Assembly (NCBI GenBank): GCA_046861655.1 | Contig: JBHIAI010000061.1 | Coordinates: 1-10,417 of the forward strand | DNA from: Fidelibacterota bacterium | Lineage (GTDB): Bacteria > Fidelibacterota > Marinisomatia > Marinisomatales > S15-B10 | Direction of reading: 5' to 3' | DNA length: 10,417 nt | Shown: in pieces, positions 1-9,875 of the stretch | Numbering within the stretch: position 1 is the stretch's first letter | Layout of the letters: each line of letters opens with the position of its first letter | Position numbers and translations under genes: made by a program | The notes under the pieces: model-generated | Told to the model about the DNA's origin: nothing | The model's database searches: none | What the model saw: the letters and a program-made list of their open reading frames with translations, nothing else

Positions 1-491
1 CAGGTTGAGGTCGTAACGGAAATGTGCTCACCCTGGACGATCTGGGAATGGCAACTGGTACACCGGAGTTCCTTTCCCCTGCGGAGTTTGATAAGGTGGG
101 GCCGGTGGTCGAAGAGAATCCCTTCCTTGAAAGGTACGACTCCCTCCAGAAGGCTCTCCTCGTGACATCCGGAGCGCAGACAGCTTGCATCCTCGATTTC
201 CGCCCAGGGCTTGCTCTTCTTGTAGACACCGGTAAAATAGTTTACCACCATGGAAATGGCGGTGAACTTGCCCCTGACATGGGACTTCCAGCCGGGAGGG
301 TAATGGCAGTCGGTACAGGTAACCGATGAATGGGTGGACGTCTTCCAGGCCTCCACGTACGGCTCCATGTAATGACACGTGGAGCAAAAACCGGGACGGG
401 AGGTCCACTCAGCGGCGCCGTATAAGATGATACCGAGCAGCACAAGGCCGCCAAGAACGACCCCCGACCACCGGAGCAGGGTCTTATTCAT
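1..491 (-). CDS. NapC/NirT (NrfH-like) membrane-anchored multiheme cytochrome c, 3'-partial (runs off the window start)
   Basis: Not in the ORF track; translated by hand from ATG at 491: MNKTLLRWSGVVLGGLVLLGIILYGAAEWTSRPGFCSTCHYMEPYVEAWKTSTHSSVTCTDCHYPPG...SCLRSGCHEE...FDHRPHL...LRCTSCHSQIVQGEHISVTTST. It has an N-terminal TM helix, the NapC/NirT-type pattern TS.P.FC..CH.M....W..S.H..V.C.DCH, three CXXCH and one CX4CH, and no stop before position 1. Confidence 0.9.
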   Translation of the reverse strand, partial: MNKTLLRWSGVVLGGLVLLGIILYGAAEWTSRPGFCSTCHYMEPYVEAWKTSTHSSVTCTDCHYPPGWKSHVRGKFTAISMVVNYFTGVYKKSKPWAEIEDASCLRSGCHEESLLEGVVPFKEGILFDHRPHLIKLRRGKELRCTSCHSQIVQGEHISVTTST

Positions 492-554
492 GGTCCAACA
501 TCCCCTGCGTCCCGGCCGGTCAGACTGTGTCGCTCGTGGGAATGGCCCCCTCCA

Positions 555-1148
555 TCATTCATCCATGTCCGGAGGATACGGATGGGCGATCTGCTCCAGG
601 AATTCGTCGAACTTAAACCCCTTGAAGGTAGGGCTCTTTTCGTTGTGGCAACCCAAGCAGGTTTCTTCATCCGGCATCAACAAGCCGACTTCGGCCCTAT
701 CGAGGGTTCCTTCGTGAATCTCCTCCATGGTGGACTTGGACTTGTACGCACTCCCCGGACCGTGGCATGCCTCGCATCCAACCGCCTGCAGTCCTTCCAT
801 CCGTCTCACCGCCTTCCTGGCTTTCCTGTCTTCCGGATCCGGATTCCAGAAGGCCTCATCTTTGACCTCGTAACCGCCACTGTCATACCCCGTTGTGTGG
901 CACACCAGGCACTCCGGTGCCTCATGGGCCGGACCTTCCAACTTGATTCCTCTGGCAATCTCCGCTGCTTCCTCGGTCTTTAGTACCTCGAAGGCACCCG
1001 CATGAGCACTTGCTTCCCACACTTTGTACTGGGCGCCCTTCTTACTGCTGGAATGACAGATCTTGCACTTCCGGGAGCCCACGTATTCGAAATCCTGGGA
1101 CCAGGCGAGACCCCCTGTCATCAGAAGAATCACCAAGATCTTTGTCAT
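555..1148 (-). CDS. Periplasmic tetraheme cytochrome c, c554/c-prime-like family
   Basis: ATG at 1148 follows a strong RBS (AAGGAGGGATCT-ATG), so it is preferred over the track start at 1187. Signal peptide MTKILVILLMTGGLAWS; YVGS.KCKICH...W..S.HA pattern; four CXXCH (CKICH, CLVCH, CEACHGPGS, CLGCH). Confidence 0.88.
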   Translation of the reverse strand: MTKILVILLMTGGLAWSQDFEYVGSRKCKICHSSSKKGAQYKVWEASAHAGAFEVLKTEEAAEIARGIKLEGPAHEAPECLVCHTTGYDSGGYEVKDEAFWNPDPEDRKARKAVRRMEGLQAVGCEACHGPGSAYKSKSTMEEIHEGTLDRAEVGLLMPDEETCLGCHNEKSPTFKGFKFDEFLEQIAHPYPPDMDE

Positions 1149-1171
1149 AGATCCCTCCTTATGGTTTTGAT

Positions 1172-1663
1172 TCATCCCCCCAACCACTCGTCAATATCTT
1201 CCGGGTCGTGGCAGGCGGTGCACGCCCTGGTTTCCCCGGCTACTCCCCCGTCCAGATTCTCCCCGTGGCACCGGGCACAGTCCTCAAATCCCCGGCTCCG
1301 GGCCTGATTACCGTGAAAAACGGTGCTGTCGGGAGTCAATAACCACACCCTGGGATGAGGATGCCCGCTGGGTCCCCCTTCGTGACAGGTGTAGCAGGAG
1401 ACTCCACTGGTGCCTCCCTCGTAATCTTCCCCGTGGCATCCCTGGCATCCTCCGATTCCCGCGGATACAATCCTGGCCATGTGAGAATTGTCGTTGCCCG
1501 GATCCAGCCACGACCCTGGATGGACAGTGGGCTCCCCTTCCTCCGTACAACCCCCCGAAAGAATGAGAACCAGGGACAGCACAACAGTGCAAAATGGAAA
1601 GTGCAAATTGGAAAGTGCAGAATTATCCAGTATCCCTCGTGTTTTCACTTTTGCATTTTTCAT
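1172..1663 (-). CDS. Putative lipoprotein tetraheme cytochrome c
   Basis: Four CXXCH (CQGCH, CYTCH, CARCH, CTACH), with two similar units C..CHGE.[YL][ED]GG. Hydrophobic stretch VVLSLVLILSGG-C resembles a lipobox. Start is uncertain: ATG 1663 chosen because the track start at 1795 overlaps the upstream gene by about 100 nt. Confidence 0.82.
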   Translation of the reverse strand: MKNAKVKTRGILDNSALSNLHFPFCTVVLSLVLILSGGCTEEGEPTVHPGSWLDPGNDNSHMARIVSAGIGGCQGCHGEDYEGGTSGVSCYTCHEGGPSGHPHPRVWLLTPDSTVFHGNQARSRGFEDCARCHGENLDGGVAGETRACTACHDPEDIDEWLGG

Positions 1664-1683
1664 TTTACAATTTGCCTTTTGAA
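1588..1683. repeat. AT-rich inverted arrays of degenerate 7-bp tandem repeats
   Basis: 1588-1622: tgcaaaa tggaaag tgcaaat tggaaag tgcagaa. 1642-1683: ttttcac ttttgca tttttca ttttaca atttgcc ttttgaa, whose reverse complement gives similar units (tgcaaaa, tgaaaaa, tgtaaaa, ggcaaat). Confidence 0.75.
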
Positions 1684-1691
1684 ATGAGCCG

Positions 1692-2525
1692 TCAATGGCA
1701 CCGCAGACAGGTGCCCGTCTCCGGTTCATGACAGGCCAGGCACACCTCTGGTTCATCCAGAGCCGCAGCGGCGTGTCGCCCTCCATCCTCCACAATCCCG
1801 GGCAATCCCACCCAATCCGAAAGATTATGATCCATGGGCATCACCGGATTCTGCCTGTGGCAGTCCTGGCAATAGGTCCGAATCTCGTGACAGGTCGAAC
1901 AATCTGTGATGCCGCTGCGGGCGTCAAACCCGTGATTGAAAAGATAGGAAACCGGATGGATGTTTGCCTCAAATTGCTGAAGCTGGTGACAGTCGTCACA
2001 GGAGGCTTGAGTGTGACAGAGCATGCAGTTTTCTTCGGTAACCGGGTTCACCCGGGATCCATGAACCCACATCCAGTCCGCCATGTGATTATCCGGTCGG
2101 ACCGATGAATGGCATGACCGGCAACCGGCTTCCTCCCACACGGGGGGGGCGGCAAGACCGTCATCCGCATAAATGGTTCCGTGACAGTCACTACAATCGG
2201 GCCGTTTTGCCAGGTGAAAGAGGTGAGAAAATACCGGGCCCGATCTTGAGGGTCGCTCCCGGTAGGTCATGGGATTCTCCGGGTCGGCATGGCAGGCAGA
2301 ACATTCATCCGTGGCCAGATCCCCGTCATGGCATTCCAGACAAGATTCCTCTTCCGGCAGGAGACGGATATCCAGGGAAACGGATTCCTCGACCCCTTCG
2401 TGGCACTGGGTACACTCCAGTTCCATCTCTTCCACATGAAGCTGATGAGGAAAGATAATTCGGTCCCGCTCCTGGGCACTTAGGAGGAAAACGGATATCA
2501 ACATCCAAAGACTACAACGTCCCAT
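1692..2525 (-). CDS. Secreted 11-heme cytochrome c (cytochrome c3/c7-like repeats)
   Basis: Eleven CXXCH counted: CTQCH, CLECH, CSACH, CSDCH, CRSCH, CMLCH, CDDCH, CSTCH, CQDCH, CLACH, CLRCH-stop. c3-like F.H..H motifs (FPHQLH, FSHLFH) and P..H...[WY]...HG repeats. Signal-like N-terminus from ATG 2525, which overlaps the upstream gene's end by 14 nt. Confidence 0.9.
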   Translation of the reverse strand: MGRCSLWMLISVFLLSAQERDRIIFPHQLHVEEMELECTQCHEGVEESVSLDIRLLPEEESCLECHDGDLATDECSACHADPENPMTYRERPSRSGPVFSHLFHLAKRPDCSDCHGTIYADDGLAAPPVWEEAGCRSCHSSVRPDNHMADWMWVHGSRVNPVTEENCMLCHTQASCDDCHQLQQFEANIHPVSYLFNHGFDARSGITDCSTCHEIRTYCQDCHRQNPVMPMDHNLSDWVGLPGIVEDGGRHAAAALDEPEVCLACHEPETGTCLRCH

Positions 2526-3669
2526 GGATCGCCAGTCCGCCCCTCCCGTCAAGATCATAGTAGGGGTTTTTGTTCACCTGTCCAAACACCCGCACAACCA
2601 CCTTCTTCAGAGGATTCCACGAAAGCCAGCCGTACAGTCCAGTGGCCGTCCCGCCCGGGCGGGAGACAAGATCCCCGTAGTCCACGGCGTTTACAGTAAG
2701 CTGAACCCCCGAGGTAAGTGAAGAGAATATTTTCTGTTTGGTTCCCGCTCCGCCCCCGAACAGTCTCCTGTCTCCCTGGATTCCGGCCAGGGCTGTAAGC
2801 TGAAATCCCTTCACGGTCAGCGTACTTGAGACATAGGAGGCCGGATTGTCGCCCATCCGGTAAATGAGTTGATTCCACCAGGTGACGCTGCTACCCACTG
2901 GCGACATAGCACCCAGGGTTACCGCCGCAGGCACAACCGTTTTTTCCTTCACCCACGGGTAGGGGCGGGCAGTGGGCAGCCGTTTATTCCTGACGCCCAG
3001 CCTGAACCGCTGATTACCCACATTCGTTGACGCTGATAGACGAACATAGTGAAGGACATTATCGGCAAGATTCCAGGCCATGGCTGTCGAAATCCTTACC
3101 TTTCTCAGCACAACCCCGTTCCAGCTGGACCCCACGTACGACACCGTCCCCAGGGTGTCATGGTGACTCCAGGCAGTGACAGAAAAGTTCCTTCCAGGCT
3201 TTCCTTTTCCCCAGGAAACCAGAAAGAACGACCTCTTCGTGACCGACGTGTCGCTGAAGTCTGATACTGCTGGGAATCCCCCCAGAAGGGTCACCGATCC
3301 AAACCTCTCTGTATCCACTGTGTACTCCGCACCGTCAACCCGGGTCTGAACCAGCCCGCTCCAGTGGGTCATTCTTCCTGCTCTCAGGGTATGAGGTCCC
3401 ACGGTCAGTCGCGCCAGCATATCGTGTATTCGGAAAGGATTGCGAAATCGGAAATTCTCCGAGCCGTATTCGAAGTGGGTCTGCAGGCTCAGGATCGACC
3501 CGAAATTCTGCCTGTACTGTCCCCAGACTCGCCAGTGCACTGCAGTATCTGTGGAAACCATATGGAGCCGCGGTGTGATGATGGTGGAGGAAATGGAGAT
3601 TTCTGGTTCCTCCGCTCCAAGGACGGTGAGAAAAGCGAGAAGAGGGAGAACCCTTTCGGGTTTCGACAT
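2512..3669 (-). CDS. Putative outer-membrane beta-barrel (porin-like) protein
   Basis: About 385 aa with no Cys. Signal peptide MSKPERVLPLLAFLTVLGA (alternative starts 3693 and 3717). Many alternating amphipathic segments (VHWRVWGQYRQ, LSLQTHFEYG, TLRAGR..VDGAEYTV, VRISTAMAWN, GLYGWLSWN, VVVRVFGQVN) and a C-terminal strand GGLAIHGTL. First gene of the cytochrome run. The fold is inferred, not computed. Confidence 0.65.
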   Translation of the reverse strand: MSKPERVLPLLAFLTVLGAEEPEISISSTIITPRLHMVSTDTAVHWRVWGQYRQNFGSILSLQTHFEYGSENFRFRNPFRIHDMLARLTVGPHTLRAGRMTHWSGLVQTRVDGAEYTVDTERFGSVTLLGGFPAVSDFSDTSVTKRSFFLVSWGKGKPGRNFSVTAWSHHDTLGTVSYVGSSWNGVVLRKVRISTAMAWNLADNVLHYVRLSASTNVGNQRFRLGVRNKRLPTARPYPWVKEKTVVPAAVTLGAMSPVGSSVTWWNQLIYRMGDNPASYVSSTLTVKGFQLTALAGIQGDRRLFGGGAGTKQKIFSSLTSGVQLTVNAVDYGDLVSRPGGTATGLYGWLSWNPLKKVVVRVFGQVNKNPYYDLDGRGGLAIHGTL

Positions 3670-4154: not shown

Positions 4155-4211
4155 TGGGCAGGTCCATCGAAAATCATTGATTCATTTACCGTTGGGACCT
4201 AATTTGCAAAT

Positions 4212-4225
4212 GGATAATAGGGTCT
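4212..4225 (+). promoter_or_regulatory. Candidate operator GGATA-N4-GGTCT (copy 2, upstream of the first Rrf2 gene)
   Basis: ggata-atag-ggtct lies between a -35-like TTGCAA (4204-4209) and AT-rich taataa (4226-4231), about 60 nt before the Rrf2 start, a typical autorepression position. Confidence 0.4.
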
Positions 4226-4283
4226 TAATAACGTTTATTTGGTTTCTTCTTCCCCTTCCGGAAAAGACCCTGAGGAGTCATCC

Positions 4284-4715
4284 ATGATTCTGAGCCGCTC
4301 ATCCGAATACGGCATCGAATTGGTGATATATCTTTTGACCCACGACGTACCGGAGTATGCCTCCTTAAGGACTATCTCAAGGGAGACGAACCTTTCGTTT
4401 CACTACTTGAGTAAGATTTCCCGGATGCTCACCCGACGGGATATCCTGATATCCTACCGGGGACCTCGGGGAGGTGTGGCTCTGGGAAGAACCCCGGACG
4501 AAATCACCCTGTTTGACATCGTTCATGCCATCGAGGGAGACGACCTTTTTGAAAAATGCGTCCTGAGGCCGGGCCCCTGTCGGGGGGAAGACCCCTGCTC
4601 AGTACACGAGCAGTGGCTGCCCATCCGCGACCAGATCCGTAGACTTTTTATGGAAACCAGTCTAGAATTCCTCCAGGACCACAGAGTGGTCCCCGAAAAC
4701 CAGAAAGAAGCCTGA
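4284..4715 (+). CDS. Rrf2-family transcriptional regulator, probably Fe-S binding
   Basis: ATG 4284 after RBS GAGGAG. MILSRSSEYGI start, winged-helix signature YLSKI...L....ILISYRGPRGGVALGR...EITLFDIVHAIEG, and C-X6-C-X5-C-X2-H (CVLRPGPCRGEDPCSVH). Confidence 0.93.
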   Translation: MILSRSSEYGIELVIYLLTHDVPEYASLRTISRETNLSFHYLSKISRMLTRRDILISYRGPRGGVALGRTPDEITLFDIVHAIEGDDLFEKCVLRPGPCRGEDPCSVHEQWLPIRDQIRRLFMETSLEFLQDHRVVPENQKEA

Positions 4716-4723
4716 GGATTCCC

Positions 4724-5290
4724 ATGACACAAAAACCGTCCCCTCCTCCCTCGTCCCATAAGCCTCGACCACCGCTGCTGAACCGGCTTCCCCAGGATCA
4801 TCTCATCGCCACCTTGATGAGGGAACATCAAGACATAGTCAAACTGCTGGATAGGCTCCGGACCCTGACAGAAAAGCTCGATTCCCTGGAATCTCCCCAG
4901 GACAATCCTGGTCTTCTGGACCGGCTGTCCGAAGTGACAGAGAATCTCCTGGAGGTGGAACTCCACCACGACCGCGAAGAAAAGATCCTCTTCCCGGCCC
5001 TAGAAAAACAGGGTATCACCGACTCTCCCTACGTCCTGAAAGAAGAACACCAGATCCTGCGCGATATGAAGACCAAGTTTCTTGAGGCCCTTAGCCAATC
5101 CAGAAAGAAGGATTTCCCTGCCGTAAAAGCCAGGCTGGGTTACTACGGCCGAAGCATCGACCGCCTGGTCCGAAAACATATCGAAACGGAAAACACCGTC
5201 CTTTTTCCCGCGGCACTGCAGGCCATCCAGGATGAAACCCGCTGGAAAAACCTGAAAGCCGAGAGTGAGAAACTGGGAAAAAAGGCTTGA
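4724..5290 (+). CDS. Hemerythrin-like (HHE cation-binding) domain protein
   Basis: RBS GAGGA before ATG. Two HHE-type repeats: LMREH...ELHHDREEKILFPAL and LKEEH...KHIETENTVLFPAA. Confidence 0.88.
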   Translation: MTQKPSPPPSSHKPRPPLLNRLPQDHLIATLMREHQDIVKLLDRLRTLTEKLDSLESPQDNPGLLDRLSEVTENLLEVELHHDREEKILFPALEKQGITDSPYVLKEEHQILRDMKTKFLEALSQSRKKDFPAVKARLGYYGRSIDRLVRKHIETENTVLFPAALQAIQDETRWKNLKAESEKLGKKA

Positions 5291-5306
5291 CTGCCCCTCA
5301 GGGCTC

Positions 5307-5765
5307 TTGTTAACTTTAATAAGATTTACGGGGGAATATGCCATCCAGGCCATGATCTACCTGGCCGAACAGGACTCCGATGAACCGATAATGATTGGCG
5401 AGATCGCCAAGGCCTACGGCATTCCCCAGCAGTTCCTCGCCAAGATCGTGCAGACGCTGGTCAAGCACCGCCTCATGGTCGCGGTCCGGGGTCGAAAAGG
5501 TGGGGTGAAACTGGCCCGGGATGCCTCGGAAATATACCTGCCTCAGATTGTGGCAGCCATCGAAGGTCCTGCGCCGGAGGAGGAACCCTGTGTGTTCGGC
5601 CTGGATGCCTGTTCTGACCAGGAGCCGTGTCCCCTTCACCACCAGTGGACAGTGATTCGGGACGAGATCCGCCATATGCTTGAGCATGAGGACCTGAAGA
5701 AATTGGCCAAACGCGTCAGTGAGAAGCACCTGGCCATGCAAAATATTCTTCCGGTCGAAGGTTAG
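5307..5765 (+). CDS. Second Rrf2-family transcriptional regulator (start uncertain)
   Basis: TGEYAIQAMIYLA, FLAKIVQTLVK, RGRKGGVKLAR, IVAAIEG and C-X6-C-X5-C-X2-H (CVFGLDACSDQEPCPLH). No ATG at the expected position; TTG 5307 chosen (alternatives GTG 5265, ATG 5352). Confidence 0.88.
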   Translation: MLTLIRFTGEYAIQAMIYLAEQDSDEPIMIGEIAKAYGIPQQFLAKIVQTLVKHRLMVAVRGRKGGVKLARDASEIYLPQIVAAIEGPAPEEEPCVFGLDACSDQEPCPLHHQWTVIRDEIRHMLEHEDLKKLAKRVSEKHLAMQNILPVEG

Positions 5766-8885: not shown

Positions 8886-9875
8886 TTGAAATCCCCATGT
8901 CTTCTGTCGGGGGGGTTCCTGATCATTCCCCCCCTGTTTCTGGTCCTTACTGTCTTGATTCTCCCTCCTTCCTCCCTCGCCCAGGAAAAGGCCCCAGCGC
9001 CCACGGAAACCGTCAAGTATTTCAAGACCAGGCTCATGCGGACCGACATTCTAAGAAATGAAATCGATGCGGAACAGGCGAGCCGGGTTAACCACTTCCG
9101 GGCCGTCTACGATCATCGTGGAAACCTCCTGAGAATCGAGTTCGTTCCCAGGGGCGACCTTCAGAGGAAACGGGTCCGGAAACGGGATCTTTTCCCCCGC
9201 CCTCAGGCCCCCTTTCGATACTTTCGGGCCTGGAATCCCTACACGAAAAGCCTTGGGAATGAAATTCCCCAGCAGAAGGTGAGCGGTGGCCCCTTTTACC
9301 GGGTCTCATACCTCGATAGCGTTCACGTGAAGACTGTTGAATACTTCCTGAGAAGGAATCGTCTGCTGTGGACCTACTATCTTCAGTGGAATCCCGAAGA
9401 GACCCATGCCGACCTTCACATTGTCTTCGCCACCCGCCGGCCTCTGACCGTGCTGGATCCCCATCTCTTCCACCCCGCGGCGAGTGAAATGAGGCCCGGC
9501 TGGATCGCGGAATTCAGGCAGAACCGCCTGGGAAGGCCACTCGGCCTCACCGTCCGCGACGACGTGGGAAACGTGTATTACTTCTACCGGTTTGAGCACT
9601 CCTACGAAACCGTGGGGGATACCCTGAATCCCGTCACTCATCGCGTCACCTCGGCCCGCTACTTTCGATCCGACAGCACGCTCATAGGCGCCCACCGACT
9701 GGTCTTTTCTGAGGAAAACAGTCTCTTGAAAAAGGAATTCTATGATGCCCGGGGAGATCTCACCGAATCCATCGAATACGAATATGATCCTGAGCTTGAG
9801 GAAGTCTCCGTCGTCATCCGGGATCCCAAAGGGAATATCCTTCACCGCCAGGTTCTCCCCCAGAGGTCCGACTAA
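8886..9875 (+). CDS. Hypothetical secreted protein with YD-like beta-hairpin repeats
   Basis: 329-aa ORF starting (TTG) 1 nt after the dnaG stop. Hydrophobic N-terminus ending SSLA-QEK. Recurring segments VYDHRGNLLRIEF, FYDARGDLTESIEYEYD and RDPKGNILHRQ. Confidence 0.7.
   Translation: MKSPCLLSGGFLIIPPLFLVLTVLILPPSSLAQEKAPAPTETVKYFKTRLMRTDILRNEIDAEQASRVNHFRAVYDHRGNLLRIEFVPRGDLQRKRVRKRDLFPRPQAPFRYFRAWNPYTKSLGNEIPQQKVSGGPFYRVSYLDSVHVKTVEYFLRRNRLLWTYYLQWNPEETHADLHIVFATRRPLTVLDPHLFHPAASEMRPGWIAEFRQNRLGRPLGLTVRDDVGNVYYFYRFEHSYETVGDTLNPVTHRVTSARYFRSDSTLIGAHRLVFSEENSLLKKEFYDARGDLTESIEYEYDPELEEVSVVIRDPKGNILHRQVLPQRSD

What the first reader, a model, noticed from the sequence alone, without database searches (positions are those of the whole stretch)
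1..3669. Candidate porin-multiheme cytochrome conduit spanning the whole cell envelope
Seen: five co-oriented, tightly spaced genes (putative barrel, 11-heme, 4-heme lipoprotein, 4-heme c554-like, NapC/NirT-like) with 22 CXXCH plus one CX4CH inside the window, and the operon continues past position 1. Known: Shewanella MtrCAB with CymA and Geobacter Pcc complexes use the same logic of barrel, periplasmic multiheme, lipoprotein cytochrome and inner-membrane quinol oxidoreductase. Inference: this operon could encode the entire quinone-to-surface path. The parts are unlike MtrAB (barrel about 385 aa and clearly smaller than MtrB; 11 c3-like hemes instead of a decaheme MtrA), so it may be an uncharacterised extracellular electron transfer type. 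Direction of electron flow cannot be read from sequence.
Basis: partly seen in the sequence, partly recalled or inferred. Interest (0 to 1): 0.85.

Follow-up and report, generated by a model that had tools for sequence, protein, structure and literature searches.

The report
Porin-cytochrome electron conduit in Marinimicrobia
An uncultured marine bacterium of the Marinimicrobia group carries an operon that very probably wires its respiratory chain to the cell surface through a cytochrome-plugged outer-membrane barrel; it looks like an untested branch of the known Geobacter/Ignavibacterium porin-cytochrome systems, found here in many species of a phylum not known for this ability.

Summary
In detail: five co-oriented genes carry 22 CXXCH plus one CX4CH (shuffle mean 0.2). 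The 385-aa protein folds as a plug-less 22-strand outer-membrane barrel (pLDDT 90). The C-terminal six-heme half of the 11-heme cytochrome is predicted inside it (score 0.68, best control 0.00). The operon continues on another contig: the 'NapC-like' gene is the start of a 17-heme membrane-anchored cytochrome, followed by a CbcL-like multiheme/cytochrome b. No terminal reductase follows. The barrel occurs in 66 of 401 sampled genomes of the phylum (Fidelibacterota/Marinimicrobia); the 11-heme gene is adjacent in 40 of 40 loci fetched. It is not MtrAB, PCC3 or PCC4. Both core proteins are homologous to a c554-barrel-14-heme-lipoprotein cassette whose sizes, heme numbers and atypical motifs match the Ignavibacterium album Pcc cluster described in 2014. 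That link rests on the published description, not on a sequence comparison. Verdict: a real conduit candidate and a compact variant of the OmbB-type Pcc kind in a new phylum, with a quinone-to-surface gene set in one operon. Direction and substrate are unproven; outward respiration is my best guess.

The parts
2512..3669 (-). Outer-membrane beta-barrel, 385 aa with ~19-aa signal peptide; 22 strands, no plug domain; basic (40 K+R vs 22 D+E)
   Evidence: AlphaFold2 pLDDT 90.3, pTM 0.80, 22 strands; aligns over ~335 of 366 residues to 22-strand receptor barrels at Z~20, 7-11% identity; no Pfam or NCBIfam hit for this protein; only stray matches (1 member each) among 36 family members; charge
1692..2525 (-). 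11-heme periplasmic cytochrome c: N-terminal c7-like half (hemes 1-5) and C-terminal barrel-plugging half (hemes 6-11)
   Evidence: 11 invariant CXXCH plus 10 further invariant His in 36 sequences; PF14522 65 bits; best PDB sequence hit 3ov0, a c7-type cytochrome; only mature residues 131-260 touch the barrel in the complex model
1172..1663 (-). 4-heme lipoprotein cytochrome, probably outer-membrane/surface; heme number varies from 3 to 19 in relatives, often with CX4CH motifs
   Evidence: Hydrophobic stretch + Cys in 36 of 37 homologs, Asp at +2 in 1; heme counts; surface location is inference
555..1148 (-). 4-heme cytochrome c554-like protein with signal peptide, periplasmic
   Evidence: PF13435 59.1 bits, cut-off 20.8; in 28 of 40 related loci
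3..491 (-). N-terminal 163 aa of a ~670-aa 17-heme (+1 CX4CH) cytochrome with one N-terminal membrane helix and a NapC/NrfH-like first domain; cut by the contig end
   Evidence: PF03264 49.2 bits, cut-off 24.1; 87% identical to residues 11-174 of the 17-heme protein of same-genus G276, whose residues 501-676 match G000 contig C144 at 69%
4284..5765 (+). Divergent Rrf2 - hemerythrin - Rrf2 genes; possible redox/O2 regulators of the operon (inference)
   Evidence: PF02082 twice, PF01814; an Rrf2 gene lies upstream of the barrel in 6 of 40 related loci

Best explanation
The operon encodes a porin-cytochrome conduit plus its quinone-side feed. Likely path (reversible in principle): quinol -> cytochrome b of the CbcL-like protein and/or the NrfH-like domain of the 17-heme protein -> periplasmic hemes (11-heme domain of the CbcL-like protein, 17-heme chain, c554-like carrier) -> c7-like half of the 11-heme cytochrome -> its six-heme half plugged into the 22-strand barrel -> surface lipoprotein cytochrome -> extracellular acceptor. 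Shown from sequence: genes, motifs, synteny, homologies. Predicted by modelling: barrel fold and plug. Inferred: heme loading, locations, order of transfer. It is most likely the Marinimicrobia form of the Ignavibacterium branch of OmbB-type Pcc (about 0.8). The likeliest direction is outward, for anaerobic respiration of insoluble acceptors such as Fe(III)/Mn oxides or sulfur (about 0.6 given a conduit).
For: Barrel model. Complex score 0.68, best of 3 controls 0.00; this mark was reached by 116 of 157 solved complexes and 2 of 215 mismatched pairs; runs agree in at least 84% of contacts; partner pLDDT at least 71. Contacts fall on 22 of 22 strands, 63 of 76 in-strand contacts on the more polar face, with a basic barrel against an acidic plug. 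In 40 fetched loci: 11/12-heme gene adjacent in 40, lipoprotein 37, c554 28, CbcL-like 28, 17-heme NapC-like 17 (lower bounds, many contigs end). In 71 of 71 metagenome loci of 14-heme homologs with an upstream ORF of 300 aa or more, that ORF matches the barrel profile; profile-profile 97.1%, E 6e-11 for barrels and 100%, E 3e-55 for cytochromes. These loci match the I. album description. CbcL is needed for low-potential Fe(III)/electrode reduction in Geobacter (review passage).
Against: No experiment and no expression data. The complex was folded without hemes and may pass by likeness to the solved MtrAB complex. The stand-alone cytochrome model is poor in the plug half (pLDDT <50 over much of 129-238). 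I. album has such a cluster yet did not grow on Fe(III) or Mn(IV) oxides. CbcL/MtrH/MtoC homologs occur in both reducers and oxidisers. G000 also encodes pieces of an aa3-type oxidase, a type II DMSO-reductase-family enzyme and NosZ, so inward flow is possible. The link between contigs C108 and C144 is inferred from G276; about 326 codons are unassembled. The I. album porin was predicted with 18 strands, not 22.
Confidence: 0.8

Rival explanations
1. Same conduit, run inward: electrons are taken from Fe(II), metal sulfides or partner cells and fed to quinone and then to O2, nitrate or N2O respiration.
For: DNA holders are hydrothermal-vent metagenomes (3 runs holding half the words or more, one study, possibly the source itself). 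G000 has high-potential terminal enzymes. MtoC-type CbcL homologs occur in Fe(II) oxidisers.
Against: OmbB-type Pcc clusters were not found in Fe(II) oxidisers in two surveys. Melioribacter roseus, which has a Geobacter-like Pcc, reduces Fe(III) (passage).
Confidence: 0.25
2. The conduit serves sulfur chemistry: it reduces S0/polysulfide (or Se/Te oxyanions) at the surface with a rhodanese lipoprotein, as proposed for Geobacter ExtHIJKL and for some non-iron Pcc clusters.
For: A rhodanese-domain protein (PF00581) lies just upstream of the barrel in 22 of 40 loci, usually behind a 9/10-heme gene; an HmcB/HybA-like Fe-S protein and an NrfD protein follow in 12 of 40. Shi 2014 proposes S0/Se substrates for some Pcc clusters.
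Against: G000 gave no tblastn hit for the rhodanese or the 9-heme gene (genome 92.8% complete). Ext family models score far below cut-off.
Confidence: 0.2
3. Not extracellular transfer: the cytochromes form a periplasmic network or electron store for a soluble terminal reductase, and the barrel is a solute channel or scaffold.
For: Single related loci carry NosZ (1 of 40) or a NiFe hydrogenase (2 of 40) nearby. Surface exposure of the lipoprotein is untested.
Against: No catalytic reductase subunit recurs in the 40 loci. In G000 the operon ends at an arsenic-efflux-like gene. The barrel is tied to the cytochrome gene in 40 of 40 and 71 of 71 loci, and the model fills the lumen.
Confidence: 0.1

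Closest known systems
Ignavibacterium album Pcc cluster IALB_1840-1839-1838-1837 (Shi et al. 2014, PMC4245776; Liu et al. 2014, PMC4282303)
   Same: [quoted passage not shown] Homologs of the window's genes form this cassette: 68 of 71 have 14 hemes, 54 of 63 have c554 directly upstream, 62 of 65 downstream cytochromes have CX4CH and 26 of 65 have six CXXCH.
   Different: Here the plug cytochrome has 11 hemes in 277 aa, the lipoprotein 4 hemes, c554 lies downstream, and 17-heme NrfH-anchored and CbcL-like genes follow in the same operon. The barrel profiles are only 14% identical. The taxonomy of the 14-heme loci was not established, and no direct comparison with I. album was possible.
Geobacter OmbB-OmaB-OmcB and ExtABCD/ExtEFG (Pcc)
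   Same: Porin of 18-22 predicted strands next to a 5-14-heme periplasmic cytochrome and a variable outer-membrane cytochrome; CbcL-type quinone enzyme.
   Different: In Geobacter the porin clusters, CbcL and the c7 carriers are described as separate components. Here a c7-like domain is fused to the plug and the quinone-side genes are in the operon. Sequence homology to OmbB was not testable.
Shewanella MtrCAB + CymA; Rhodoferax mtr cluster with cymA and mtrH
   Same: Same logic of a cytochrome in a barrel plus a lipoprotein; an operon holding both a NapC-family and a CbcL/MtrH-family gene has this precedent.
   Different: MtrB has 26 strands and 649 modelled residues. No PF11854 match in G000. 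The DmsE/MtrA model scores 13.4 bits against a cut-off of 192.2. MtrB ranks 19th in the fold search, among generic barrels.
PCC3 and PCC4 (He et al. 2017, PMC5566968)
   Same: Barrel, multiheme cytochromes and an inner-membrane b-type protein in one cluster.
   Different: PCC3 has medians of 21 and 34 hemes and porins of up to 42 strands. PCC4 has 4-, 5- and 10-heme periplasmic cytochromes and no extracellular one.

Membership tests
OmbB-type Pcc (Shi 2014) | Porin gene adjacent to a periplasmic multiheme cytochrome gene | tested here: met
   14-bp overlap; 40 of 40 loci
OmbB-type Pcc (Shi 2014) | Porin with 18-22 strands | tested here: met
   22 strands; range
OmbB-type Pcc (Shi 2014) | Periplasmic cytochrome with 5-14 hemes | tested here: met
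   11 CXXCH
OmbB-type Pcc (Shi 2014) | Outer-membrane lipoprotein cytochrome in the cluster | tested here: met
   Lipoprotein signal in 36 of 37 homologs; the location itself is inferred
OmbB-type Pcc (Shi 2014) | Sequence similarity to OmbB/OmaB or a listed member | not testable with these tools
   No tool returned a named Geobacter, Anaeromyxobacter or Ignavibacterium Pcc sequence; no PDB sequence hit for the barrel profile
OmbB-type Pcc (Shi 2014) | Electron transfer across a membrane by the purified complex | not testable with these tools
   Needs experiment
I. album branch of Pcc | Cassette: periplasmic cytochrome, porin, 400-aa 14-heme, 6-heme lipoprotein with atypical motifs | tested here: inconclusive
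   Met by homologous loci against the published description; the window's own version has 11 and 4 hemes; taxonomy of those loci unknown
MtrAB/MtoAB/PioAB | MtrB_PioB family barrel (PF11854), 26-28 strands | tested here: not met
MtrAB/MtoAB/PioAB | Decaheme DmsE/MtrA-family cytochrome | tested here: not met
   11 hemes; TIGR03508 13.4 bits vs cut-off 192.2
PCC3 | Periplasmic and extracellular cytochromes with about 21 and 34 hemes | tested here: not met
   11 and 4 hemes (definition)
PCC4 | 4-, 5- and 10-heme periplasmic cytochromes, no extracellular cytochrome | tested here: not met
PCC3/PCC4 | Stand-alone ~300-aa five-helix membrane protein with SGXXG and WX3HX13H motifs | not tested
   The cytochrome b here is fused to an 11-heme domain; motifs not scored
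ExtHIJKL/Cbc6 selenite-tellurite operon | ExtM/ExtN/ExtO family models | tested here: not met
   Best 34 bits vs cut-offs 200-800
ExtHIJKL/Cbc6 selenite-tellurite operon | Rhodanese lipoprotein beside the porin | tested here: inconclusive
   22 of 40 relatives yes; not found in G000
CbcL/MtrH/MtoC (gene on contig C144) | N-terminal multiheme domain (3-23 hemes) fused to an FdnI-like cytochrome b with 4-6 helices | tested here: met
   11 CXXCH, 5 helices by hydropathy, TIGR01583 E 9e-11 but below cut-off (definition)
NapC/NirT/NrfH/CymA | N-terminal membrane helix plus PF03264 domain | tested here: met
NapC/NirT/NrfH/CymA | Small tetraheme protein | tested here: not met
   Same-genus full-length copy has 17 CXXCH in 681 codons
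TonB-dependent receptor | N-terminal plug domain | tested here: not met
   All 366 mature residues form barrel and loops

The most novel reading that the evidence does not exclude
This is a conduit family of its own, centred on FCB-group bacteria (Marinimicrobia, KSB1, Krumholzibacteria, probably Ignavibacteria and Zixibacteria, with Myxococcota relatives), unrelated by descent to OmbB. One operon builds a hard-wired chain of about 47 c-hemes from quinone to surface: the membrane-anchored 17-heme protein bridges the periplasm to a plug cytochrome that carries its own c7 domain, the surface cytochrome is swapped freely (3 to 19 hemes; some neighbours carry a T9SS-type tail), and the acceptor is sulfur or a partner cell rather than iron oxide.
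Probability: 0.2. Interest if true: 0.75.

Novelty: new variant of a known kind. Interest (0 to 1): 0.5.

Why it matters
Marinimicrobia (SAR406/Fidelibacterota) are abundant in low-oxygen seas, sediments and vents (own knowledge). Their cultured type species showed no Fe(III) respiration. A conduit in about one in six sampled species genomes (66 of 401) would add a widespread phylum to the candidates for mineral, sulfur or cell-to-cell electron exchange. The barrel is invisible to Pfam and NCBIfam, so annotation misses it; the profiles built here would find it. The small, single-operon version (385-aa barrel, 11-heme plug) is also a convenient test object for a Pcc branch for which I found no biochemical study.

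Tried and rejected
TonB-dependent receptor: same strand number but no plug. MtrAB, PCC3, PCC4 and Ext/Cbc6: tested and not met. Downstream terminal reductase: none recurs in 40 loci.

No solved porin-cytochrome barrel other than MtrB was among the listed fold hits; this does not exclude one. The stand-alone cytochrome model was too poor for a useful fold search. A plasmid search with one distant cytochrome homolog found nothing. No RNA holder was listed. Laying four DNA runs confirmed the sequence without indels in the covered parts; one contig runs 200 bases past the left end, and whether any contig reaches C144 was not tested. No NiFe hydrogenase was found in G000, which is 92.8% complete. 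Three look-ups of earlier scan findings were empty.

Names for the distant barrel homologs and the taxonomy of the 14-heme metagenome loci could not be obtained, so the I. album link stays indirect. Literature: searches pairing Marinimicrobia or Marinisomatota with porin-cytochrome terms gave 0 papers. Looser searches listed none on this system among the 25 of 161 and 17 of 19 shown. Supplements of broad surveys (MHCscan, FeGenie models) were not searched and may already hold these families.
Full report
OBSERVATION. The window is the whole contig C108 of a 2.06-Mb genome, 92.8% complete. Close homologs are named Fidelibacterota/Neomarinimicrobiota. Five minus-strand genes run from 3669 to the contig end: a 385-aa protein with no Pfam or NCBIfam match, an 11-heme cytochrome, a 4-heme lipoprotein, a 4-heme c554-like protein and a cut NapC/NrfH-like gene. 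They hold 22 CXXCH and one CX4CH, against 0.2 expected from shuffles; the rest of the window has none. The rest of the window is a divergent Rrf2-hemerythrin-Rrf2 group, housekeeping genes (YqeY, CvpA, dnaG), one unassigned ORF and the tail of a probable TonB-dependent receptor (weak match).

THE OPERON IS LONGER. In same-genus genome G276 the order is barrel, 11-heme, lipoprotein, c554, 17-heme, 11-heme/cytochrome b. The window's last gene matches residues 11-174 of that 17-heme protein (87%). The start of G000 contig C144 matches its residues 501-676 (69%) and is followed by the 11-heme/cytochrome b gene (78%). About 326 codons are unassembled, so the join is inferred. The C144 protein has 11 CXXCH and five hydrophobic helices with a weak FdnI-type match, the architecture that defines CbcL/MtrH/MtoC (PMC6295460, passages). 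The next gene is arsenic-efflux-like, not a reductase. By the G276 copy the operon codes for 47 CXXCH hemes.

THE BARREL AND ITS PLUG. AlphaFold2 on 76 sequences gives pLDDT 90.3 and 22 strands with long loops on one side and no plug. The best fold matches are 22-strand receptor barrels at Z about 20 and 7-11% identity; MtrB ranks 19th (Z 16.4, rmsd 4.7, 320 aligned). These matches give size, not function. The complex of barrel and 11-heme protein scored 0.68, best of 3 controls 0.00; the mark was reached by 116 of 157 solved complexes and 2 of 215 mismatched pairs; runs share at least 84% of contacts and partner pLDDT is at least 71. It was folded without hemes and could pass by likeness to solved MtrAB, so it supports binding and does not show it. 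Only cytochrome residues 131-260 (hemes 6-11) touch. They touch 22 of 22 strands, with 63 of 76 in-strand contacts on the more polar face; the barrel is basic and this half acidic. The tightest pairs put residues 156-169 near the long-loop end, which by standard barrel topology (own knowledge) is the outside. Hemes 1-5 form a c7-like half left in the periplasm by inference. Ten invariant extra histidines could supply most distal ligands.

CONSERVATION. The barrel was found in 66 of 401 sampled genomes of the phylum (46 of 190 high-quality; 37 of 114 genera). It was not found in 37 genomes of one family whose listed members are about 1 Mb. I fetched 40 of the 65 other positive genomes, chosen for contig length and spread. 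The 11/12-heme gene is adjacent in 40, the lipoprotein present in 37, c554 in 28, CbcL-like in 28 and the 17-heme NapC-like gene in 17; contig ends make these lower bounds. The lipoprotein signal is present in 36 of 37, with Asp at +2 in one; reading that as outer-membrane targeting uses a recalled E. coli rule. Recurrent non-heme neighbours are a rhodanese protein (22 of 40) and an HmcB/HybA-like Fe-S plus NrfD pair (12 of 40). NosZ (1) and NiFe hydrogenase (2) are sporadic; no reductase recurs.

RELATION TO KNOWN SYSTEMS. MtrAB, PCC3 and PCC4 fail their defining counts or family models. OmbB-type Pcc is defined by 18-22 strands and 5-14 hemes (PMC4245776), which fits. The cytochrome profile reached 174 proteins; the 120 listed have 10-16 hemes and include named KSB1 (14 hemes, 389-399 aa), Krumholzibacteria, Deltaproteobacteria and Myxococcota members. 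I fetched 80 of 536 metagenome loci for the 14-heme subfamily. In 71 of 71 with an upstream ORF of 300 aa or more, that ORF matches the barrel profile; four of the other nine had cut fragments that also match. Profile-profile scores confirm homology for barrels (97.1%, E 6e-11, 364 columns) and cytochromes (100%, E 3e-55). These loci read c554, barrel, ~400-aa 14-heme, lipoprotein with CX4CH (54 of 63, 68 of 71, 62 of 65; six CXXCH in 26 of 65; CbcL-like nearby in 21 of 71). The I. album cluster is published as IALB_1840 (periplasmic), 1839 (porin, 18 predicted strands), 1838 (400 aa, 14 hemes) and 1837 (6 hemes, atypical motifs). The match is close on four genes, and the strand predictor used there is reported to give 20 versus 24 for near-identical porins. 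A language-model search with the plug half alone returned clusters of 109-275 aa whose commonest phyla include Thermodesulfobacteriota, Myxococcota, Ignavibacteriota and Deferribacterota, phyla that overlap the 2014 list; this is a lead only. I could not compare sequences with I. album or OmbB directly, nor establish the taxonomy of the metagenome loci. I put membership of that branch at about 0.8. The 2014 paper itself calls the I. album pair distantly related to the other Pcc groups, so descent from the OmbB line is a separate, open question.

MECHANISM AND DIRECTION. The most likely function is electron transfer between the quinone pool and the cell surface (0.8). Shown: genes, motifs, synteny, homology. 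Predicted: fold and plug. Inferred: heme loading, locations, order and direction. For outward flow: Pcc clusters were not found in Fe(II) oxidisers, M. roseus has one and reduces Fe(III), and CbcL serves low-potential acceptors. Against: I. album did not grow on Fe(III) or Mn(IV) oxides, the CbcL family works both ways, and G000 has pieces of an aa3 oxidase, a type II DMSO-reductase-family enzyme and NosZ. The DNA is held by hydrothermal-vent runs of one study, possibly its source. The rhodanese neighbour hints at sulfur in relatives but was not found in G000.

PAPERS SEEN. Read in sections: PMC4245776 (parts 1-4 of 6; supplement rows), PMC7399161 (passages and section 18). Passages only: PMC5566968, PMC12545173, PMC13591261, PMC12133095, PMC6295460, PMC11475568, PMC4282303 (plus supplement rows), PMC5317091, PMC6137239, PMC8478452, PMC11652737. 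Figures were not visible, bioRxiv supplements are closed, and survey supplements may already list these families. Two searches pairing the phylum with porin-cytochrome terms found no paper.

VERDICT. A real and well-conserved conduit candidate. It is a compact variant of a known kind, apparently unreported in this phylum, and it carries a quinone-to-surface gene set in one operon. Interest 0.5.

Noticed in passing
G000:C151:13903-15954 (L177); L045:12553-14562; L047:7094-10186; L053:651-2666; L067:12463-15642: Multiheme cytochromes (7-15 hemes) with a C-terminal T9SS-type sorting domain, one also with a dockerin; in four relatives they sit in or beside the conduit operon. Candidate secreted terminal cytochromes.
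   Followed up: partly
L045:1564-2583 and 21 other loci, just upstream of the barrel: Rhodanese-domain protein with a lipoprotein-like start, usually behind a 9/10-heme gene without an NCBIfam match; not found in G000.
   Followed up: partly
L045:5757-8258 and many relatives: A second, larger CbcL-like protein (17 hemes + cytochrome b, ~835 aa) lies in the operon of most relatives but not in G000 or G276; many genomes carry two CbcL-like genes and the 17-heme NapC-like gene together.
   Followed up: partly
window 4160-4245: Short blocks conserved between G000 and G276 in the divergent promoter region next to the Rrf2 gene while the rest of the spacer diverges; possible Rrf2 operator or promoter.
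   Followed up: no
G000:C168:1280-4699 (L169): A 1140-codon frame joining a molybdopterin oxidoreductase domain to a NifS-like cysteine desulfurase; unusual fusion, not checked in other genomes.
   Followed up: no
G000:C110:1015-2856 (L178): A separate 9-heme lipoprotein-like cytochrome of ~600 aa; a 9-heme protein of similar size and family profile lies directly upstream of the barrel in L055.
   Followed up: no
window 8886-9875 (+): 329-aa ORF after dnaG with a signal-peptide-like start and no Pfam or NCBIfam match.
   Followed up: no
L086:8639-13400: An Aminicenantes genome has the same kind of 17-heme NapC-like protein followed by Rieske, cytochrome b, 9-heme and c554-like genes, with no barrel among the + strand ORFs listed; G000 has a similar Rieske/cytochrome b/9-heme set on C44.
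   Followed up: no
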